Positions 13,948-22,120 are shown, counted from the first letter of the stretch. The stretch: 64,000 nucleotides of DNA from an uncultured Rhodospirillaceae bacterium (GCA_963974055.1 CAXBCP010000009.1:74006-138005), one strand, 5' to 3'. The notes: generated by a model not told the origin, from the sequence alone. Translations and numbers: made by a program.

Positions 13948-14781
13948 ATGACTGACTTCGAAGACATCCCCTATCGCACGATCGACGGCCACACGCTGGA
14001 GGCGCGGCTCTACCGGCCCGCCGGCAGCGGCCCCGACATTAGCCCCGACAGCGGCCCGGCGCGCTGGGTCGTGGACGTTCACGGCGGCGCCTGGGGCTCC
14101 GGCGACAGGCTCAACAACCAGGTCATCCACGAAGACCTCGCAGCCCACGGTATCGGCGTCTTCGCGCTCGATTTCCGCCTGTCGGACACGGCGCAGTATC
14201 CGGCTATGGTCGACGACGTCAGCTACGGCATCCGCTGGTTCAAGGCCAATGCCGCTGCCCTCGGCGTGAATGCCGCGACCATCGGCGGGCTCGGCTCGTC
14301 GAGCGGCGCGCAGCAACTGGGGCTGGTCGCGCTGTGTCCCGCCAACCCGCGCTGGACGACGCCGGATGCCGCCCTCGGCGACGCCGATGCGAGCATCGAT
14401 TTCTTCGTCGCCGGCTGGCCGATCCTCGATCCGCTGGCGCGCTACCGCATGGTGCGCGACGCCGGCAACGAGCGCCTGGTCGCCGCCCACGATGCCTGTT
14501 TCGCGACCGAGGCCGACATGGCGGAGGGCAACCCCTGCGCGCTGCTCGACCGCGGCGAGGCCACCCACCTGCCGCCAATGATCGTCATCCAGGGCACGGC
14601 GGACGCCAATGTCGAACACACCTGGCAGGACCGCTTCGCCGATCTCTACCGCGCCAAGGGCGGCACGGTGGAGATGCACAAATACGACGGCCAGCCCCAC
14701 ACCTTCGTGACCGCCGACCCGACCTCGGCGGCATCCCTGGATGCGATTGTGAAGATCCGGGAATTCGTCCTCGCGGTCTGA
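13948..14781 (+). CDS. alpha/beta hydrolase (esterase/lipase-type)
   Basis: 277 aa with an HGGAW oxyanion motif and the nucleophile elbow GLGSSSG. Confidence 0.65.
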   Translation: MTDFEDIPYRTIDGHTLEARLYRPAGSGPDISPDSGPARWVVDVHGGAWGSGDRLNNQVIHEDLAAHGIGVFALDFRLSDTAQYPAMVDDVSYGIRWFKANAAALGVNAATIGGLGSSSGAQQLGLVALCPANPRWTTPDAALGDADASIDFFVAGWPILDPLARYRMVRDAGNERLVAAHDACFATEADMAEGNPCALLDRGEATHLPPMIVIQGTADANVEHTWQDRFADLYRAKGGTVEMHKYDGQPHTFVTADPTSAASLDAIVKIREFVLAV

Positions 14782-14829
14782 TCTTCTGTCGGCGCCGGGG
14801 GAATCGCTTCCCCGGCCCGCCACCAAACC

Positions 14830-15085
14830 AAAACCCGTAAAACAACCCCATGCACCCGAAGGGAAGGGATGGCATTGACGGGAGATCCCCGCCGCCGCGG
14901 GGATGACCACCGCCCCGGCCCGCCGGTCCGGTGCCGCGAAACGCAAACCCGCAATTCAACCCCATGCACCCGAAGGGAAGGGACGGCAGTGGCGGGCCGC
15001 GTCCCTGCCCGGGCGGGACCGCCGCCCCGGCCCGCCGCAAATCGCAAACCCGCAATTCAACCCCATACACCCGAAGCTCCGGAAT
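14830..15085. repeat. tandem direct repeat, unit of about 105-115 bp in roughly 2.3 copies
   Basis: The unit runs aaacccgcaattcaaccccatgcacccgaagggaaggga...gccccggcccgcc...cgcaaacccgcaattc. It appears from about 14830, about 14944 and about 15045 (the last copy partial), and each unit contains an internal GC hairpin. Confidence 0.7.
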
Positions 15086-15584
15086 ACCCTTCACGGAAAA
15101 CGGAACCCCGCCGCACGGAACCCTTTCGCCAACCGGCCGCGCCGACTGACGCCGGGATATCGCCCGGAAGCCGCCGGGATGCCGGCGCGATGCCGCCCGA
15201 ATTGCGATTAATTATCTGTCGTAGCGCCTCTCCCCTGTCGTGATCGTCCGGCCTGCCGATACCGGAACGCAACCCGACAGGGAGTGTAACACAAAAAGAA
15301 CAAATAACGAACATATATGACTGAGCTGATTCAGCTTGAAATTTATCAGGATTGAAAGATCAGCGCCCAACCGGCCACCGCCTCTCTAACTAGGTTGTCG
15401 ACCTTCCAATCAGATTCCACTCATAAACGGGGGAATGACGGGGACAAGGTCAAAAACAATGCCACCACCGAGTTTCTCATCAACGGAGTTCAACTAGAAA
15501 AATCGATCAAACGGGTTAGAGCCAAGTTAAAATTTTTGATCAGCTGACAATTTTAATAGCCCTTCCTAAACTAGGTCACTCGCG

Positions 15585-15599
15585 ACCAACTTAAAGTTG
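15585..15599. promoter_or_regulatory. perfect palindrome ccaacttaaagttgg in the AT-rich leader about 70 bp upstream of the NLR-like gene (candidate operator)
   Basis: ccaactt / aagttgg are inverted. Upstream direct motifs ctaactaggt (15386-15395) and ctaaactaggt (15567-15577) are also present. Confidence 0.3.
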
Positions 15600-15671
15600 G
15601 CTGTTCCGTATCTTGCAATCACAAGAACAATCATTCAACTTTGTGGAGAAAATTCACTTTAGGCGAAGAAC

Positions 15672-18557
15672 ATGCCCCTCGTTGAAACATTGGTTTTATC
15701 TCTTGGAGCATCTTTATCAAAGGCTGCCATAAAACTCTGGATGTCAGATTCCGGATTAGCAATCGACGCATCTTCTGCTTTAGTCGACACGTTCAAAAAG
15801 CATCTGCCTGATGAACTTTCTAGGCGAAGGGCCAATCGACTTTACGAACAGATTGCTGAACAAACGGCGGAAAAAATTGAGCCACTATTTCGACAAGAAT
15901 TCGGTCGGCTCGAAGATGATCGCAAAGAACGCGTCGCCCTAGCTGTTGCAAAGACAATCGATGACGCTGGTGCTTCGGCTGAAATTCTCGCTCAGTTGGA
16001 TTTCGACCCGGTAAAACTCGAGACATACTTTAACAAGTTCAATTCGACTGCAGAATTTTCGCTTACGGCAACGCAATCCGTTTTCTACGAACGAATTCTC
16101 AGAGAATCTTGTTTCTACATTATCGAGATTGCTAACAATTTGCCGACGTTAAAAACGGCAATAGCGTCAGAAATTCTTAAACGCCAAACCGAAATACTAG
16201 AGAAAATCGAAAAGATTCTAAAAAATATACCGGAGAGTATATTTGACTCATCAAAAGACAGTGACGTCGAAGGCTTCGAGAACTTATATCGACGGACGAT
16301 TTCATCGAAGTTAGATGAAATCGAGCTACACGGATTGAGCTTACGGTCAGTGAACCCACGATACAGTTTATCTGTCGCATACATCAGCCTCATGATGTCC
16401 CTCGGGGGGAAACTTGCTCAAAATGAAGAGACCATCAACCGCGTACCCGTCGGAAAAGCATTCGCGGGAGGGAAACGATTCCTAATTTTTGGAGAGCCCG
16501 GTTCCGGGAAGACAACTCTGTTAAAATGGATTGCAGTTCAGACAGCAAAATTGAATTTTGAAAACGAACTCGCTGAATGGAATAACTGTTTTCCATTTTT
16601 CGTCCGATTACGCCGTTATTCTGTAGGTGAATTTCCAGTTGGCGCAAAATTAGTAACGCATTTGGCGCCGACATTGGAAGGTCATCTACCCCATCAGTGG
16701 GTAGAAAAAAAATTAAATTCCGGACAAGCAATTCTGTTAGTCGACGGCCTTGATGAACTACCAGAAAACAAAAGGAATTCGGCAAGGAAATGGCTTAAGG
16801 AACTGGCCGAAGTTTACGCAAACGCGACAATAATTGTCACATCTCGCCCGCCCGCTGTACCGCGCACCTGGCTAGACTCTGTAAATTTCGATGTGCGGGA
16901 AATTCAACCAATGAACTCGCACGAGATCACAACGTTCATTAATTATTGGCACACTGCCGAAAAGGAAGCAATTAATGATCCAGTCATTGTAGAAAGGATC
17001 GATCGAGCCGGAAAGACGTTGAAGAACGAAATTTCCAATAATGACGAACTGCGAAATTTGTGCACTACGCCATTATTAGGCGCAATGATATGCGCGCTCT
17101 ATTTGGAAAGAAAGGAGCACCTACCGGCAGATAGGTTGGACCTTTACTCTATGACACTCGATTCAATCTTAGAGGGGCGAGATAACGAAAGAGACATCCC
17201 TCAAATTTACGAATTTGATCTGACTAAGCGGGAAAAAGAGTACCTGCTTATGAGCATCGCACAATGGTTTCTTCTGAATGGAAAAGTCGATGCCTCTATC
17301 AACGACGTCAAACTCCACCTTGAATCTGTAGCTTCTCGTTTTGGAGATGGTGATCTAACGGCAGACCAACTCCTAAACTTCCTATTAGAACGAAGTGGCG
17401 TTCTTCGCACGCCAGCCGTTGGAAGCTTAGATTTCATTCACAAGACATTTCAAGAGTATCTTGGAGCAAAAGCTATTGTCACCGACAACAATATTGGATT
17501 GTTAGTCCTATCTGCGCACGTCCCCGAATGGCGTGAAGTCGTGGTTCTCGCGGCAGGCCTCTCCAACAACCCACAATTAACCGAACTAATTGATGGGATA
17601 TTAGATCGATCTGAAAAATCATCAGATATCGAAAGTAATATTTTAAAAATTGTGGCTGTAGCCTGCAAAGGTACCGTAGCAATATGGCCTCCCGGGGTAG
17701 CAGATCGACTAGACACCGTTTTTGCCGAGCTCTTCCCGCCTCGTGATATATGGGCTGCAAGAAGCATTGCAAAAGCCGGCCCACAGGCACTCGACTACCT
17801 ATCAGGCTACCAAGACGAAGAAGACGCTATTGCCGCAGCTTGTATCCATGCAATCATCTCAATTGGCGGGAAAAAAGCACTCGAAACCCTAGAAGCATAC
17901 GGGTCCAATTCTGGAGCGCTTGCCGCTACAGAACTATTGCAAGGTTGGGACTATTTTGACCAGCTCCAGTACGCAAAGTTAATATTGAAAAAAAACAACG
18001 CCCGTTTTGGAATAAACTGGAATGACAGAAATAATTTGGAAGGAATTCAATATTTAAAGAATCTGCATTCTTTTGAACTATCCGATTCATGGAAGATTCG
18101 AAGTATCAATAATCTAAAGAACGCCAAAAAACTAAAACACTTAGTACTAAAGAATTGCAACTCGCTCGATTCAATATCAGCCCTTAAAAATCTTTCCGAA
18201 TTAAGACACCTGACCATCGAGAATTCACCTGACATCAAATCCATCAAAGCAATAGAATCTCTGATCCACCTAAAAGAATTATACTTAGATGGCTGCTCTA
18301 GAATATCAAATTTATTACCAATATCAAATTTAACTCAATTACAAATCCTGCACCTAAACGGTCTATATAATCTCACCGATCTTGATTTTATCAGTAAACT
18401 CAAAAGCCTCGAACAACTAGATTTAACAGGTTGCTATGGAATAACAGATTTAATACCGTTAGCCCGACTCCCCAATCTCACAACCGTCTATCTCCCAGAA
18501 TTAAATTACGACCAAAATTTGCCGAGTGAATTTATTGAACGGGTAGAAATTTTATAG
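15672..18557 (+). CDS. NLR-like STAND NTPase with an unknown helical N-terminal domain, NACHT, HEAT-like repeats and C-terminal leucine-rich repeats
   Basis: 961 aa. The NACHT domain shows Walker A GEPGSGKTTLLKWIA (aa 275-289), Walker B AILLVDGLDELP (aa 353-364), sensor-1 IIVTSRP and the NLR-type winged-helix motif DFIHKTFQEYLGAKAI. HEAT/PBS-like repeats span roughly aa 690-750. Eight or more LRRs follow (LKNLHSFELSDS..., LKHLVLKNCNSLDSISALKNLSELRHLTI..., LKELYLDGCSRISNL...). The N-terminal ~265 aa are all-helical with no recognisable motif. The gene is low-GC. Confidence 0.8.
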   Translation: MPLVETLVLSLGASLSKAAIKLWMSDSGLAIDASSALVDTFKKHLPDELSRRRANRLYEQIAEQTAEKIEPLFRQEFGRLEDDRKERVALAVAKTIDDAGASAEILAQLDFDPVKLETYFNKFNSTAEFSLTATQSVFYERILRESCFYIIEIANNLPTLKTAIASEILKRQTEILEKIEKILKNIPESIFDSSKDSDVEGFENLYRRTISSKLDEIELHGLSLRSVNPRYSLSVAYISLMMSLGGKLAQNEETINRVPVGKAFAGGKRFLIFGEPGSGKTTLLKWIAVQTAKLNFENELAEWNNCFPFFVRLRRYSVGEFPVGAKLVTHLAPTLEGHLPHQWVEKKLNSGQAILLVDGLDELPENKRNSARKWLKELAEVYANATIIVTSRPPAVPRTWLDSVNFDVREIQPMNSHEITTFINYWHTAEKEAINDPVIVERIDRAGKTLKNEISNNDELRNLCTTPLLGAMICALYLERKEHLPADRLDLYSMTLDSILEGRDNERDIPQIYEFDLTKREKEYLLMSIAQWFLLNGKVDASINDVKLHLESVASRFGDGDLTADQLLNFLLERSGVLRTPAVGSLDFIHKTFQEYLGAKAIVTDNNIGLLVLSAHVPEWREVVVLAAGLSNNPQLTELIDGILDRSEKSSDIESNILKIVAVACKGTVAIWPPGVADRLDTVFAELFPPRDIWAARSIAKAGPQALDYLSGYQDEEDAIAAACIHAIISIGGKKALETLEAYGSNSGALAATELLQGWDYFDQLQYAKLILKKNNARFGINWNDRNNLEGIQYLKNLHSFELSDSWKIRSINNLKNAKKLKHLVLKNCNSLDSISALKNLSELRHLTIENSPDIKSIKAIESLIHLKELYLDGCSRISNLLPISNLTQLQILHLNGLYNLTDLDFISKLKSLEQLDLTGCYGITDLIPLARLPNLTTVYLPELNYDQNLPSEFIERVEIL

Positions 18558-18595
18558 TTTGCGGATATTAATTCATCACATAATGCTTCCAGAGC

Positions 18596-18632
18596 GCGAA
18601 AAAAGGGCTTAGCGAAAACCGACTAAGCCCTT
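18596..18632 (+). terminator. rho-independent terminator of the NLR-like gene
   Basis: Hairpin gggcttag-N10-ctaagccc followed by ttgcaattgttgg. Confidence 0.5.
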
Positions 18633-18768
18633 GCAATTGTTGGTTGCGGGGGCACGATTTAAACCTGCGGCCTTCAGGTTATGAGCGTGATTGTCAATAA
18701 TCCTGCGCAATCCCATAAACTTCCAAAAAAAAACGACCATGAAAATCCGGGTATCCGCGCCGGGATAC

Positions 18769-18849
18769 CCCCCACAAAAAAACCCGGCACAGGGCCGGGT
18801 TTCTTTTCGTCGGGAACGAGCGGAGGGTTATTCCACGAATTCCTCGACC
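18769..18849. repeat. direct repeat A: partial duplicate of the clpA 3' end plus its terminator
   Basis: 81 bp, nearly identical to 19710-19790 with 4 mismatches confined to the spacer between stop codon and hairpin. It includes the aaacccggcacagggccgggttt hairpin and the last about 21 nt of the clpA reading frame, but here it is not attached to any gene. Confidence 0.8.
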
Positions 18850-18943
18850 TTGACGGGACATCGATCTGGCGCGCCGGCTCTGTAAGTTCGTCTTTCAGAA
18901 CCTCGCCGGGATGAGCTAGCTGTTTCAACAGCTGCGCCGTGCC

Positions 18944-19255
18944 TCAAACCGGGTCCGGAACGAACGGCTTCACATCGACCTGATCGGCCTTATCGCGCAT
19001 GGTTGATGCGTCATACCAGGCCTGCATACGCAGCAGCGTATCCATGGACAGACCGAAGGCCTTTTCGAGCCGCAGGGCCATTTCCGGCGTCAGGCCCGCT
19101 TTCTCGTTCAGCAGGTCCGACACCGTTGCGCGGCGCACCCCGAGAATCCCGGCCGCGCGGCTGATGCTCAACCCCAGTTCTTCAATCACTTCTTCGCGGA
19201 TGAATTCACCCGGATGGCCGGGCTTCATCCCGACTTTGATTCCCTCGTTTTCCAT
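18944..19255 (-). CDS. higA: HigA family antitoxin (XRE-type HTH)
   Basis: The start at MENEGIKVGMKPGHPGEFIREEV is internal to listed ORF 18944..19345. It has an HTH (LSISRAAGILGVRRATVSDLLNEKAGLTPEMALRL). Its ATG overlaps the higB stop (TGATG). Confidence 0.8.
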   Translation of the reverse strand: MENEGIKVGMKPGHPGEFIREEVIEELGLSISRAAGILGVRRATVSDLLNEKAGLTPEMALRLEKAFGLSMDTLLRMQAWYDASTMRDKADQVDVKPFVPDPV

Positions 19256-19539
19256 CAGTGGTAATCCTCCAAATTCAGATGCTCCACGCTCACGCCATCG
19301 ATCTCGAAGGTGATGCGCCAATTGCCCGATGCACTGATGCTCCACGTCCCTGCCCGGTCGCCCGTCAGCTGATGAATGCGCCAGCCGGGGGGACCTTCTA
19401 CGCCCGCCATATTCTCGGCGGCGATCAGGGCTGTCAGAATTCGCCGCACCCGCCCGACCAGATCGCGACTGATTTCGCGGTCGTCATCATCTTCGATGAG
19501 GCGCCTTAGCCCCCTGTGGTCAATCGAACCAATCTGCAC
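19255..19539 (-). CDS. higB: HigB toxin (RelE/ParE superfamily, 'plasmid maintenance system killer')
   Basis: 94 aa with ...RLHQLTGDRAGTWSISASGNWRITFEIDG...EHLNLEDYH, typical of HigB. The toxin-first gene order matches higBA. Confidence 0.8.
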   Translation of the reverse strand: MQIGSIDHRGLRRLIEDDDDREISRDLVGRVRRILTALIAAENMAGVEGPPGWRIHQLTGDRAGTWSISASGNWRITFEIDGVSVEHLNLEDYH

Positions 19540-19709
19540 ATTTCAATGTGTACGGTTATACCGTACATACGTCAAGTCATCTCCTGATTTTTTCGATGGA
19601 GGTTCCATCGCCATGGCCACTGCAACCCGGCGAATGCGGGGCAGTCACGGTAGAGGAGAACCGACAGCAGACACACAAAGGCGGCCTGGCGTCCGGGCAC
19701 AGCCGAACG

Positions 19710-19790
19710 CCCCCACAAAAAAACCCGGCACAGGGCCGGGTTTCTTTTCGTCGGGTACGGGCGGCGGGTTATTCCACGAATTCCTCGACC
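19710..19790. repeat. direct repeat B: the authentic clpA 3' end (last codons and stop) plus the bidirectional terminator hairpin
   Basis: This is the partner of 18769-18849. The hairpin cccggc-acagg-gccggg is flanked by an A-run and a T-run. Confidence 0.8.
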
Positions 19791-22120
19791 CTGTCGCCGT
19801 CGCCGTCGGGGCCGTCGTCGTCGTCATCCGTGTCCGGATCCTTCGACTTGCCTTTCGGCGGCGCCGCGAGGGTGACGAGGGTGAGGGTGTCGTCGGCCTT
19901 TTTGACGTCGACCTGGACCACGCCGCCCTTGGCGAGCTTGCCGAACAGGATCTCGTCGGCCAGCGGCTTCTTGAGATGTTCCTGGATGACCCGCGACAGC
20001 GGCCGCGCGCCGTAGGCGATGTCGTAGCCCTTGCGGCACAGCCAGTCGCGGGCCGCGTCGGTCAGCTCGAAGGTCACGTTGCGGTCTTCGAGCTGGGCTT
20101 CGAGCTGCATGATGAACTTGTCGACGACCAGCAGCACCACTTCCTGCGGCAGGCTGGCGAACGGGATGATCGAATCCAGCCGGTTGCGGAATTCCGGGGT
20201 GAACATGCGCTTGATCGCCTCCTCGTCCTCGCCCGTGCGTTCGGCGCGTTCGAACCCGATGGCCGGCTTGGCCATCTCGGCGGCGCCCGCATTGGTGGTC
20301 ATGATCAGGATCACGTTGCGGAAATCGACGCTCTTGCCGTTATGGTCGGTCAGCCTGCCGTGATCCATGATCTGCAGCAGGATGTTGAACACGTCCGGAT
20401 GGGCCTTTTCGATCTCGTCGAGCAGCAGCACCGAATGGGGATGCTGGTCGACCGCGTCGGTCAGCAGGCCGCCCTGGTCGAAGCCGACATAGCCCGGCGG
20501 CGCGCCGATCAGGCGGGACACCGAATGGCGTTCCATGTATTCCGACATGTCGAACCGCGTCAGCTCGACGCCGAGCGTGTGGGCGAGCTGGCGCGCGACC
20601 TCGGTCTTGCCGACGCCGGTCGGGCCGGAGAACAGGTAGCTGCCGATCGGCTTGTCGGGTTCGCGCAGGCCGGCACGCGCCAGCTTGATCGCCGATGCCA
20701 GGGCGTCGATGGCGCTGTCCTGGCCGAACACCACGCGTTTCAGGTCGGCATCCAGCGTCTGCATCGATTCCTTGTCGGAACGCGACACGCTTTTCGGGGG
20801 GATGCGCGCGATCTTGGCGACCACGGCCTCGACGTCCTTGACCGTGATCAGCTTCTTGCGCCGGCTTTCCGGCACCAGCATCTGGGCGGCGCCGACTTCG
20901 TCGATCACGTCGATCGCCTTGTCGGGCAGCTTGCGGTCGTTGATGTACTTGGCGGCCAGTTCCACGGCCGTGCGCAGCGCGGCGGCGGTGTAGCGCACCC
21001 GGTGATGCTTTTCGTAATAGGGTTTCAGCCCGCGCAGGATTTTCACCGTGTCCTCGACGCTCGGCTCCGGCACGTCGATCTTCTGGAACCGGCGTACCAG
21101 CGCGCGGTCCTTTTCGAAATACGACCGGTATTCCTTGTAGGTGGTCGAGCCGATGCATTTCAGCGTGCCGCCCTGGAGGGCCGGTTTCAGCAGGTTGGAC
21201 GCATCCATCGAGCCGCCGCTGGTCGCGCCGGCGCCGATGACGGTGTGGATTTCGTCGATGAACAGGACCGCGTCGTCATGCTGTTCGAGCTCGGACACGA
21301 CCGCTTTCAGGCGTTCCTCGAAATCGCCGCGATAGCGGGTCCCGGCGAGCAGCGCGCCCATGTCGAGCGAGAAGATGGTCGCGCCCTTGAGCACCTCCGG
21401 CACGTCGCCGTCGTGAATGCGCTTGGCCAGCCCTTCGGCGATGGCGGTCTTGCCGACGCCGGAATCGCCGACATAGAGCGGGTTGTTCTTGGTGCGGCGG
21501 CACAGCACCTGGATGGTGCGCTCGATCTCGGCGTCGCGGCCGATCAGCGGATCGATTTTGCCGTCGGCGGCTTTCTGGTTGAGATTGACGCAATAGGTGT
21601 CGAGCGCCTCGCCGGCGCTCTTGCCGTCCTCCTCGTCGCCCCCTTCTTCGTCGGTGCCGCGGACCGAGCGGTTTTCCGACCGGCCGGGGACCTTGGCGAT
21701 GCCGTGGCTGATATAGTTCACGGCGTCGAAACGGGACATGTCCTGTTCCTGGAGATAGTACACCGCGTGGCTTTCGCGCTCGGAGAACATGGCCACCAGC
21801 ACGTTCGCGCCGGTGACTTCCTGGCGCCCGGAGGACTGGACGTGAATGGCCGCCCGCTGCACGACGCGCTGGAAGCTCGCGGTCGGTTTCGGGTCTTCCT
21901 CGTCCTCGACCACCAGGTTGGACAGGTCCTCGTCGAGATAGCCTTTCAGGTCGTCCGAAAGCTTCTCGATATCGACGCCGCAGGCCTTGAGCACGGCGAT
22001 CGCGTCCTGGTCCTCGGTCAATGCCATCAGCAGATGTTCGAGCGTGGCATATTCGTGGTGACGGTCGTTCGCCTGCGACAAGGCGCGGTGCAGGCTTTTT
22101 TCAAGATTGCGTGAAAGCAT
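19769..22120 (-). CDS. clpA: ATP-dependent Clp protease ATP-binding subunit ClpA
   Basis: The start at [14 protein letters not shown] is internal to listed ORF 19769..22174. It has two AAA+ modules ([15 protein letters not shown] and [15 protein letters not shown]). Confidence 0.9.

What the first reader, a model, noticed from the sequence alone, without database searches (positions are those of the whole stretch)
18769..19790. 81-bp direct duplication of the clpA 3' end and terminator brackets the higBA cassette: an att-like footprint at an insertion hotspot downstream of clpS-clpA
Positions 18769-18849 and 19710-19790 are near-identical (4 mismatches, all in the untranslated spacer). Each copy contains the last ~21 nt and stop codon of clpA plus the hairpin aaacccggcacagggccgggttt. 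Only copy B is attached to the real clpA. Copy A is an orphan lying between the NLR-like island and higBA. This is the signature of one or more site-specific (or homology-facilitated) insertions into the clpA 3' end that regenerate the gene end, as in tRNA or 3'-end targeting islands. The tandem arrangement (NLR island, DR-A, higBA, DR-B, clpA) suggests serial accretion at one hotspot. No integrase is present in the window, so the elements may be stranded or mobilised in trans.
Basis: seen in the sequence. Interest (0 to 1): 0.6.

Follow-up and report, generated by a model that had tools for sequence, protein, structure and literature searches.

The report
Gene-end duplication scar flanking higBA insertion
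An 87-base copy of the end of clpA and its terminator sits on each side of a small higBA toxin-antitoxin cassette; this is a scar of a non-site-specific insertion at a variable spot in a marine alphaproteobacterium, a known kind of event rather than a new mobile element.

Summary
The repeat is real. Window 18769-18855 and 19710-19796 match at 82 of 87 bases. The 81-base core has 3 mismatches, not the 4 reported. Each copy holds the last 22-28 nt of clpA, a lineage-specific spacer and a bidirectional terminator hairpin. Only two copies exist in the window, and at least two independent metagenome assemblies span both.

Relatives with 93-96% identical ClpA have clpA directly convergent on the hydrolase gene. 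They carry one clpA end, no higBA and no NLR gene, so an insertion is supported. The slot varies widely across relatives, so the hotspot idea is supported too.

The att or site-specific reading is not supported:
- No integrase was found in the window.
- No element carrying this sequence was found in phage, plasmid or viral collections.
- The closest higBA relative (86% nt) sits elsewhere in a chromosome without flanking repeats.
- That relative has a third gene, a 141-aa HigA-family antitoxin. In the window this gene is cut after about 33 codons, exactly at the edge of the orphan repeat.

The orphan junction is therefore an illegitimate join inside a gene. The best reading is an integrase-independent "insertion with long target duplication". 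The likely route is homology-facilitated illegitimate recombination anchored in clpA. Ordinary to moderately interesting.

The parts
13948..14781 (+). Abhydrolase_3-type hydrolase gene. It is the conserved left border of the slot and is convergent with clpA.
   Evidence: The 277-aa ORF is 74-80% identical to the Abhydrolase_3/BD-FAE genes that lie next to clpA in relatives. An exact copy is on contig L150.
15313..18768 (.). Low-GC island carrying the NNH1-NACHT-LRR (NLR-like) gene at 15672-18557 (+). The boundaries are approximate.
   Evidence: GC is 33-46% here against 60-71% in the flanks. Pfam hits are NNH1, NACHT and LRR. Homology with the relatives' intergenic DNA stops at about 15312.
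18769..18855 (-). DR-A, the orphan copy: last 22-28 nt of clpA with its stop codon, a 25-nt spacer, the terminator hairpin and a T-run.
   Evidence: The terminator-like hairpin is called on both strands. Folding energy is -36.7 kcal/mol, z = -5.5.
18856..18932 (-). Remnant of a second HigA-family antitoxin gene (higA2'). It keeps about the first 33 codons of the intact gene (25 remain after a 21-nt internal deletion), the ATG is lost, and it is cut at the edge of DR-A.
   Evidence: It aligns with the start of the intact 141-aa gene L144:2468-2893. That gene matches TIGR02607 HigA at E = 1e-24.
18944..19258 (-). higA antitoxin, 104 aa.
   Evidence: TIGR02607 at E = 1.8e-26. Pfam HTH_3.
19255..19539 (-). 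higB toxin, 94 aa. Its stop overlaps the higA start.
   Evidence: PF05015 HigB-like toxin at E = 2.4e-12. The exact protein is on Tara contigs L081-L085.
19550..19575 (-). Likely higBA promoter and operator: palindrome GTACGGTATAACCGTAC and a TTGACG hexamer.
   Evidence: Read from the sequence. It is conserved in L144 and L147 upstream of higB. Function is inferred.
19643..19709 (.). 67 nt of unknown origin between DR-B and the start of homology with the L144 cassette.
   Evidence: Homology with L144 starts at 19642. There is no significant similarity to the relatives' intergenic DNA.
19710..19796 (-). DR-B, the functional copy: the real clpA 3' end (19769-19796) with spacer and terminator.
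19769..22120 (-). clpA, 783 aa, with clpS upstream. It is the conserved right border of the slot.
   Evidence: Pfam Clp_N, AAA, AAA_2 and ClpB_D2-small, plus ClpS upstream. Homologs are 90-96% identical in marine metagenomes.

Best explanation
The two copies are a long target duplication left by an integrase-independent, illegitimate insertion. A DNA fragment carrying the higB promoter, higB, higA and only the first third of a second higA gene was joined to the chromosome 28 nt before the clpA stop codon.

The clpA-proximal side kept or received a complete clpA end and terminator (DR-B). The other clpA end and terminator was displaced downstream as an orphan (DR-A). There it now sits between the convergent higBA and NLR genes as a spare bidirectional terminator.

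The route I think most likely is homology-facilitated illegitimate recombination. In this route, DNA from a conspecific that already had higB-higA-higA2 just downstream of its own clpA terminator recombined homologously within clpA. Its other end, inside higA2, joined illegitimately to the recipient's clpA at -28.

Shown: the duplication, the empty site in related species, the truncated gene at the junction, and the absence of an integrase. Inferred: the donor, the anchor, and the order relative to the NLR island.
For: 1. Homology to the intact three-gene cassette of L144 (86% over 765 nt, then 92% over 26 nt) runs from window 19642 to 18855. It stops exactly where clpA homology (DR-A, 18855-18769) begins. 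The overlap is at most 1 nt and there is no filler.
2. The third L144 gene is a complete HigA-family antitoxin, so the window copy is a truncation.
3. Related cassettes in L144-146 and L147-149 lie in unrelated chromosomal contexts with no long flanking repeats. The cassette therefore has no att ends of its own.
4. No integrase, recombinase or transposase domain was found among about 45 window proteins scanned. The +/-10 kb flanks are syntenic housekeeping genes.
5. DR-A shares states seen only in this lineage with DR-B: the EEFVE codon GAATTC and the otherwise unalignable spacer. Relatives have EELVE or EEMAE and different spacers. The orphan therefore comes from this species or a very close one, not from a foreign element.
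6. Relatives with 93-96% ClpA identity have a single clpA end, and some have the same hairpin, next to the hydrolase.
7. Gene-end duplications recur at this slot. There is a 60-nt hydrolase-end repeat (78%) around a 4.3-kb integrase-less island in L110, with L129 as the empty form. There is also a 31-nt hydrolase-end repeat in L089 compared with L128.
8. The pattern matches published 'insertion with long target duplication' (PMC2853133) and HFIR displacement that leaves orphan 3' ends (PMC5361080).
Against: No conspecific genome with the postulated donor arrangement was found (clpA, terminator, higB, higA, intact higA2). No same-species empty site was found either: all eleven same-species contigs carry the same structure. 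Neither flank beyond the repeat could be shown to be ancestral. The three spacer mismatches do not tell apart 'two haplotypes' from 'born identical, then diverged'. HFIR is usually reported with deletion of recipient DNA rather than duplication; that statement is from my own knowledge of the literature. The Na/H-exchanger insertion in L154 has no gene-end repeat, so the pattern is not universal at this slot.
Confidence: 0.55

Rival explanations
1. Site-specific integration at the clpA 3' end. An integrative element whose attP mimics the clpA end and terminator integrated, giving attL and attR. A later internal deletion removed the integrase and everything from higA2 codon 33 up to, or into, attR.
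For: The direct repeats include a gene 3' end that is regenerated, as in elements that target tRNA genes or gene 3' ends. The slot is a hotspot with other gene-end repeats. TA modules are common cargo of integrative elements (own knowledge). The orphan's real original length is unknown, so a deletion could have trimmed it.
Against: It needs two events, with a deletion endpoint that coincides with the end of the repeat. No integrase is present in the window. No attP-bearing phage, plasmid or viral contig was found. Relatives of the cassette show no att-like repeats. The islands in L110 and L154 also lack integrases.
Confidence: 0.2
2. De novo long target duplication at a staggered break, or by template switching during repair or replication (MMBIR-like). 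A random linear fragment (18856-19709) was captured, and the 81-87 nt between two nicks was filled in on both sides. The two copies were born identical and later diverged.
For: The insert is a truncated random fragment with blunt-looking junctions. This is the mechanism class proposed for RM-gene insertions with 46-420-bp duplications, some of which overlap gene 3' ends (PMC2853133).
Against: The copies differ at 3.7-5.7% of positions, while the same-species contigs from several samples are 99.4-100% identical to the window. That would imply a long residence. The 67 nt next to DR-B has no identified source. This does not exclude the model.
Confidence: 0.15
3. Campbell-type single crossover. 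A circle of about 0.94 kb carrying the clpA end, terminator, higBA and higA2' was produced by aberrant excision in a sister strain. It then integrated by RecA-dependent recombination within the 87-nt homology.
For: The topology gives exactly two direct repeats around the insert. The circle junction would be the higA2'/clpA-28 join seen at 18855/18856.
Against: It needs the same donor haplotype as HFIR plus an extra circularisation step. 87 nt at 94-96% identity is a poor substrate for homologous recombination (own knowledge). No circle junction was observed.
Confidence: 0.07
4. Not a locus-specific event: either an assembly artefact, or two copies of a dispersed terminator or repeat element.
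For: The 26-nt hairpin with its T-run occurs in 47 JGI metagenome contigs, only 4 of which carry a clpA end next to it, and in one viral contig. Several assemblies break inside or next to the repeat.
Against: The full 81-87 nt includes clpA coding sequence and a lineage-specific spacer. It occurs only twice in the window and in no phage, plasmid or viral record. At least two independent assemblies span both copies with the same three differences.
Confidence: 0.03

Closest known systems
Insertion with long target duplication (Nobusato et al. 2000; Furuta, Abe & Kobayashi 2010, PMC2853133)
   Same: A small 'selfish' gene module is inserted without any mobility gene. It is flanked by direct repeats longer than 30 bp that are single-copy in the empty genome. 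In some cases the repeats overlap the 3' end of the neighbouring gene, for example a 46-bp repeat overlapping 15 bp of HI0105.
   Different: The published cases concern restriction-modification systems, and the authors link the mechanism to RM activity. Here the cargo is a type II toxin-antitoxin module. One junction demonstrably truncates a gene. The empty site is seen only in related species, not in the same species.
Homology-facilitated illegitimate recombination with displacement of orphan 3' ends (T6SS effector-immunity, Rhs and CDI arrays; Kirchberger et al. 2017, PMC5361080)
   Same: A conserved upstream gene acts as the anchor, and new DNA is added next to it. The previous 3' end is pushed downstream as an orphan, and no integrase is involved.
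   Different: In those arrays the displaced pieces are toxin C-termini and immunity genes under selection. Here the displaced piece is only 28 nt of a housekeeping gene plus its terminator. The donor haplotype has not been observed.
Integrase-mediated integration into tRNA genes or gene 3' ends (attL/attR duplication)
   Same: Direct repeats contain a regenerated gene 3' end, and the site is used repeatedly.
   Different: There is no integrase, no attP-bearing element and no natural element end. The repeat abuts a truncated gene.
Mobility-gene-free variable or defence hotspots between core genes (for example core defence hotspots of Pseudomonas aeruginosa; own knowledge, not checked here)
   Same: Conserved flanking core genes bracket variable cargo that includes defence-type genes (NLR-like STAND, TA), with no mobility genes.
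   Different: The cargo in relatives is not mainly defence genes (MCP/cupredoxin/MauG, Na/H exchanger).

Membership tests
Site-specific integrative element (att duplication) | A tyrosine or serine recombinase gene lies inside or next to the element. | tested here: not met
   No integrase, resolvase or transposase domain was found among about 45 window proteins. The flanks are syntenic housekeeping genes.
Site-specific integrative element (att duplication) | The repeats bound a complete element with natural, reproducible ends. | tested here: not met
   DR-A abuts a HigA-family gene cut at about codon 33. Related cassettes elsewhere have no such repeats.
Site-specific integrative element (att duplication) | attP is found on a phage, plasmid or circular form, or the same element occupies the same att in other genomes. 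| tested here: not met
   The clpA-end/spacer 25-mer has no exact match in viral contigs. The whole repeat-plus-cassette stretch (18740-19830) has no match in phages, and in plasmids only distant matches to higA. No JGI contig has two copies of the hairpin.
Site-specific integrative element (att duplication) | The empty site holds a single copy of the repeat. | tested here: inconclusive
   Related species (ClpA 87-96% identical) have one clpA end, and some share the hairpin, but their spacers differ. No same-species empty site was found.
Insertion with long target duplication | Direct repeats longer than 30 bp flank an insert shorter than 20 kb. | tested here: met
   81-87-nt repeats flank an 854-bp insert.
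Insertion with long target duplication | The insert contains no mobility gene. | tested here: met
   The insert holds only higB, higA and the higA2 remnant.
Insertion with long target duplication | The repeat is otherwise unique in the genome and single-copy in a genome without the insert. | tested here: inconclusive
   It is unique within the 64-kb window and single-copy in related species. The whole genome and a conspecific empty genome were not available.
Homology-facilitated illegitimate recombination product | One junction is illegitimate (little or no homology), and the other side runs into conserved homologous DNA. | tested here: met
   The higA2'/clpA-28 junction has at most 1 nt of overlap. 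The other side is clpA itself.
Homology-facilitated illegitimate recombination product | A donor haplotype carries the insert next to the anchor gene. | tested here: not met
   No higB, higA or higA2 lies downstream of clpA in any fetched relative; the one HigA-like match (L006, 48%) lies about 8 kb beyond clpA. Only 12 context look-ups were possible.
Type II HigBA toxin-antitoxin module | A HigB/RelE-like toxin gene lies upstream of a HigA HTH antitoxin gene in one operon. | tested here: met
   PF05015 at E = 2.4e-12. TIGR02607 at E = 1.8e-26. The toxin comes first, the stop and start codons overlap, and there is a conserved palindrome upstream. Activity was not tested.

The most novel reading that the evidence does not exclude
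Duplications of gene 3' ends recur on both borders of this slot in several related marine alphaproteobacteria: the clpA end here, and the hydrolase end in L110 and L089. These might reflect a dedicated, still unrecognised integration route. Candidates are a trans-acting recombinase or a gene-transfer-agent-linked process that targets convergent gene ends or bidirectional terminators and regenerates them. Under this reading, toxin-antitoxin modules behave like restriction-modification systems, as self-inserting 'long target duplication' elements.
Probability: 0.1. Interest if true: 0.6.

Novelty: new member of a known kind. Interest (0 to 1): 0.3.

Why it matters
This locus gives a clean, base-resolved example of how a housekeeping locus gains accessory or defence-type genes without any mobile-element machinery. 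It also shows that a long direct repeat containing a gene end need not be an att site. It extends 'insertion with long target duplication', described for restriction-modification genes, to a toxin-antitoxin module in an uncultured marine alphaproteobacterium. Finally, it flags the clpA|hydrolase slot as a variable hotspot worth tracking in ocean metagenomes. It does not reveal a new mechanism.

Tried and rejected
- A GTDB genome scan with ClpA gave no relative above 78% identity, so it yielded no species-level empty site.
- An exact look-up of the 783-aa ClpA, and of the HigA start I chose, found nothing.
- The JGI metagenome scan with the 26-nt hairpin mostly returned unrelated terminators, for example after tRNAs. 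Only 4 of 47 contigs were clpA ends, and none was the window's species.
- Same-species look-ups (HigB, NLR, hydrolase) found only the same arrangement, so no presence/absence polymorphism could be tested.
- A search for a third repeat copy found none.
- A search for a repeat of the tRNA-like piece at the other end of the NLR island found none.
- The 35-aa higA2 remnant alone gave no NCBIfam hit. It was identified only through the L144 alignment.
- Local alignments of both outer flanks (18560-18768 and 19540-19709) against the relatives' intergenic DNA did not exceed shuffled controls. Which flank is ancestral therefore stays open.
- I considered a shared GGAATTCGTG motif in the clpA and hydrolase ends as a common recombination core. 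I dropped it because the relatives' clpA ends lack it.
- The literature search for clpA as an integration site found nothing relevant.

Full report
**Observation**

The direct repeat exists as described. The repeat finder gives one two-copy family at 18769-18855 and 19710-19796 (87 nt, 94%, spacing 941). A base-by-base comparison shows 3 mismatches in the 81-nt core (18815, 18819, 18824) and 2 more in the next 6 nt.

clpA is on the minus strand at 19769-22120 (783 aa, ending DRVEEFVE*), so copy B contains its last 22-28 nt. Copy A reads KVEEFVE* in the same frame but is attached to nothing. Both the hairpin and the clpA-end 25-mer occur exactly twice in the window, against zero expected. The hairpin has an A-run on one side and a T-run on the other, and it is called as a terminator on both strands. 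It is therefore a bidirectional terminator of the kind expected between convergent genes.

**Layout**

On the plus strand the order is:
- hydrolase, 13948-14781 (+)
- about 530 nt of conserved intergenic DNA
- a 33-46% GC island (about 15313-18768) carrying an NNH1-NACHT-LRR gene
- DR-A
- a 77-nt gene remnant
- higA (18944-19258, minus strand) and higB (19255-19539, minus strand), with a conserved palindromic operator
- 67 nt of unknown origin
- DR-B, overlapping clpA, with clpS beyond it

**Organism and population**

The nearest GTDB genome has only 78% ClpA identity. Exact HigB, NLR and hydrolase proteins are found on Tara Oceans and other ENA metagenome contigs (L081-L085, L150-L153). These contigs are 99.4-100% identical to the window and have the same arrangement. 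The structure is therefore real and apparently fixed in the sampled population. At least two independent assemblies (L081, L152) span both repeat copies. Several other assemblies break inside or next to the repeat.

**Empty site and hotspot**

In L086-L088 clpA is 50 nt from the convergent Abhydrolase_3 gene. The gap is about 170 nt in L128, 179 nt in L095, 478 nt in L089-L094 and about 590 nt in L129. None of these has higBA or an NLR gene.

L089, L128, L129 and L110 carry the same hairpin after clpA, but a different, unalignable spacer. Other relatives have other cargo. L154 has a 2.2-kb Na/H-exchanger gene. L110 has a 4.3-kb lower-GC island with an MCP, two cupredoxins and a MauG-like peroxidase, and no integrase. 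In L155-L159 no hydrolase gene is called, although a hydrolase-like match remains in most of them. The slot is thus a variable hotspot.

Two of these relatives also show gene-end duplications, this time of the hydrolase end. L110 has a 60-nt repeat (78%) bracketing its island, with L129 as the empty form. L089 has a 31-nt repeat (81%) bracketing about 280 nt that is absent from L128.

**What the junctions say**

The closest relative of the cassette is L144-L146, with HigB 90% identical. It aligns with window 19642-18880 at 86% over 765 nt, and with 18880-18855 at 92%. In L144, higA is followed by a third gene of 141 aa that is a clear HigA-family antitoxin (TIGR02607, E = 1e-24).

The window retains only the start of this gene. 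The ATG is changed, 21 nt are deleted internally, and the homology ends at 18855. That is the very base at which the clpA homology of DR-A begins. The orphan repeat is therefore fused to the middle of a gene, with at most one base of overlap and no filler. This is an illegitimate junction, not the natural end of a mobile element.

The L144 cassette (after coaBC) and the L147 cassette (between glyoxalase and another hydrolase) lie in unrelated chromosomal contexts with no long flanking repeats. The clpA-end/spacer 25-mer has no exact match in viral contigs. The whole repeat-plus-cassette stretch (18740-19830) has no match in phages and only distant matches to higA in plasmids. The 26-nt hairpin on its own is a generic terminator found in many unrelated contigs. 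No integrase, resolvase or transposase domain was found among about 45 proteins covering the window.

**Origin of the orphan copy**

DR-A shares with DR-B the GAATTC (Phe) codon and the spacer. Both are seen only in this lineage; relatives have EELVE or EEMAE and unrelated spacers. DR-A therefore comes from this species or a very close relative, not from a foreign attP.

DR-A keeps AAG (Lys), as all relatives do, where the functional clpA has AGG (Arg). The differences between the copies (3.7% over 81 nt, 5.7% over 87 nt) exceed the 0-0.6% seen among the same-species contigs. This fits two slightly diverged haplotypes being joined, but it does not exclude an old duplication.

**Mechanism**

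I conclude that this is an integrase-independent insertion with long target duplication. The most economical route is homology-facilitated illegitimate recombination, in three steps:
1. Incoming DNA came from a conspecific that carried higB-higA-higA2 just beyond its own clpA terminator.
2. That DNA paired with the recipient within clpA.
3. Its other end, inside higA2, was joined illegitimately 28 nt before the recipient's clpA stop.

The donor's complete clpA end and terminator then serve clpA, and the recipient's own end and terminator are displaced downstream. This is geometrically consistent. It also parallels the published proposals for orphan 3' ends in T6SS/Rhs arrays (PMC5361080) and the 'insertion with long target duplication' class defined for restriction-modification genes. 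In that class, repeats of 46-420 bp sometimes overlap a gene's 3' end (PMC2853133).

Three rivals remain possible:
- An att-type integration followed by an internal deletion that removed the integrase and trimmed attR.
- A de novo duplication at a staggered break, or by template switching.
- A Campbell-type crossover of a small circle.

The order of the NLR and higBA insertions cannot be determined. 'Serial accretion' is plausible but not shown.

**Present-day consequences (inferred)**

DR-B still terminates clpA. DR-A provides a terminator for the higBA operon and insulates it from the convergent NLR gene. The two repeats could mediate RecA-dependent loss of higBA, which the addiction property of the module would oppose. 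None of this was tested.

**Verdict**

The insertion and hotspot parts of the interpretation are supported. The site-specific att reading is not. The feature is a new example of a known kind of rearrangement, with a toxin-antitoxin cargo, in an uncultured marine alphaproteobacterium. It is of modest interest.

Noticed in passing
window 14820-15080: There are three imperfect copies of an intergenic unit containing AACCCCATGCACCCGAAGGGAAGGGA between the hydrolase stop and the island. Similar units occur in the same slot in L089, L110 and L129. Several assemblies break here.
   Followed up: partly
window 15230-15312: A conserved non-coding block lies at the left edge of the NLR island. It holds a GAAC-N7-GAAC motif (15298-15312), the form of the alphaproteobacterial LexA/SOS box (own knowledge), next to a long hairpin (CTCCCCTGTCG...CGACAGGGAG). 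The block is conserved in L089, L110 and L129, and the sequences diverge right after it. The motif alone is not rarer than chance in the window. It could be an SOS-regulated small gene or sRNA.
   Followed up: partly
window 18644-18709 (-): A tRNA-like stretch with a CAU anticodon loop and a ...CCCCCGCAACCA 3' end lies inside the low-GC island, about 60 nt from DR-A. ARAGORN does not call it. The Rfam tRNA model gives only 12.2 bits (E = 8). It may be a decayed tRNA-Met remnant carried in with the NLR island. No second copy is present at the other end of the island.
   Followed up: partly
window 20653-20709 (clpA) versus L081 8883-8887: The 513-kb Tara scaffold of the same species lacks 57 nt of clpA in frame. 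This removes 19 residues ([19 protein letters not shown]) that are conserved in all relatives. It is either a real variant or an assembly error.
   Followed up: partly
L110 764-823 and 5129-5188: A 60-nt direct repeat of the hydrolase 3' end (78%) brackets a 4.3-kb lower-GC island (MCP, two cupredoxins, MauG-like peroxidase, no integrase) in a relative. L129 is the matching empty site. The orphan copy is more diverged (80%) than the surrounding DNA (94-97%).
   Followed up: partly
L089 12517-12547 and 12827-12857: A 31-nt duplicate of the hydrolase 3' end (81%) flanks about 280 nt (the SOS-box block plus a repeat unit) that is absent from L128.
   Followed up: partly
L154 11449-13215; L155-L159 between clpA and the FemAB-like gene: The same slot has other states in relatives. 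One is a Na/H-exchanger/TrkA_N gene inserted without gene-end repeats. In another, no hydrolase gene is called, although a hydrolase-like tblastn match remains in L155-L157 and L159.
   Followed up: no
L084 (window 16610-16638 and 18431-18515): One Tara contig of the same species has 29-nt and 85-nt gaps relative to the window, in and just after the NLR gene, which is called as split ORFs. The contig L152 lacks a called higB. These are either population variants or assembly noise.
   Followed up: no
window 18749-18770 (-): A second terminator-like hairpin (GGGTATCC-CGGCGC-GGATACCC followed by GGATTTTCAT) lies immediately downstream of DR-A. Its folding energy is no better than that of shuffled sequence (z = -0.28).
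   Followed up: partly
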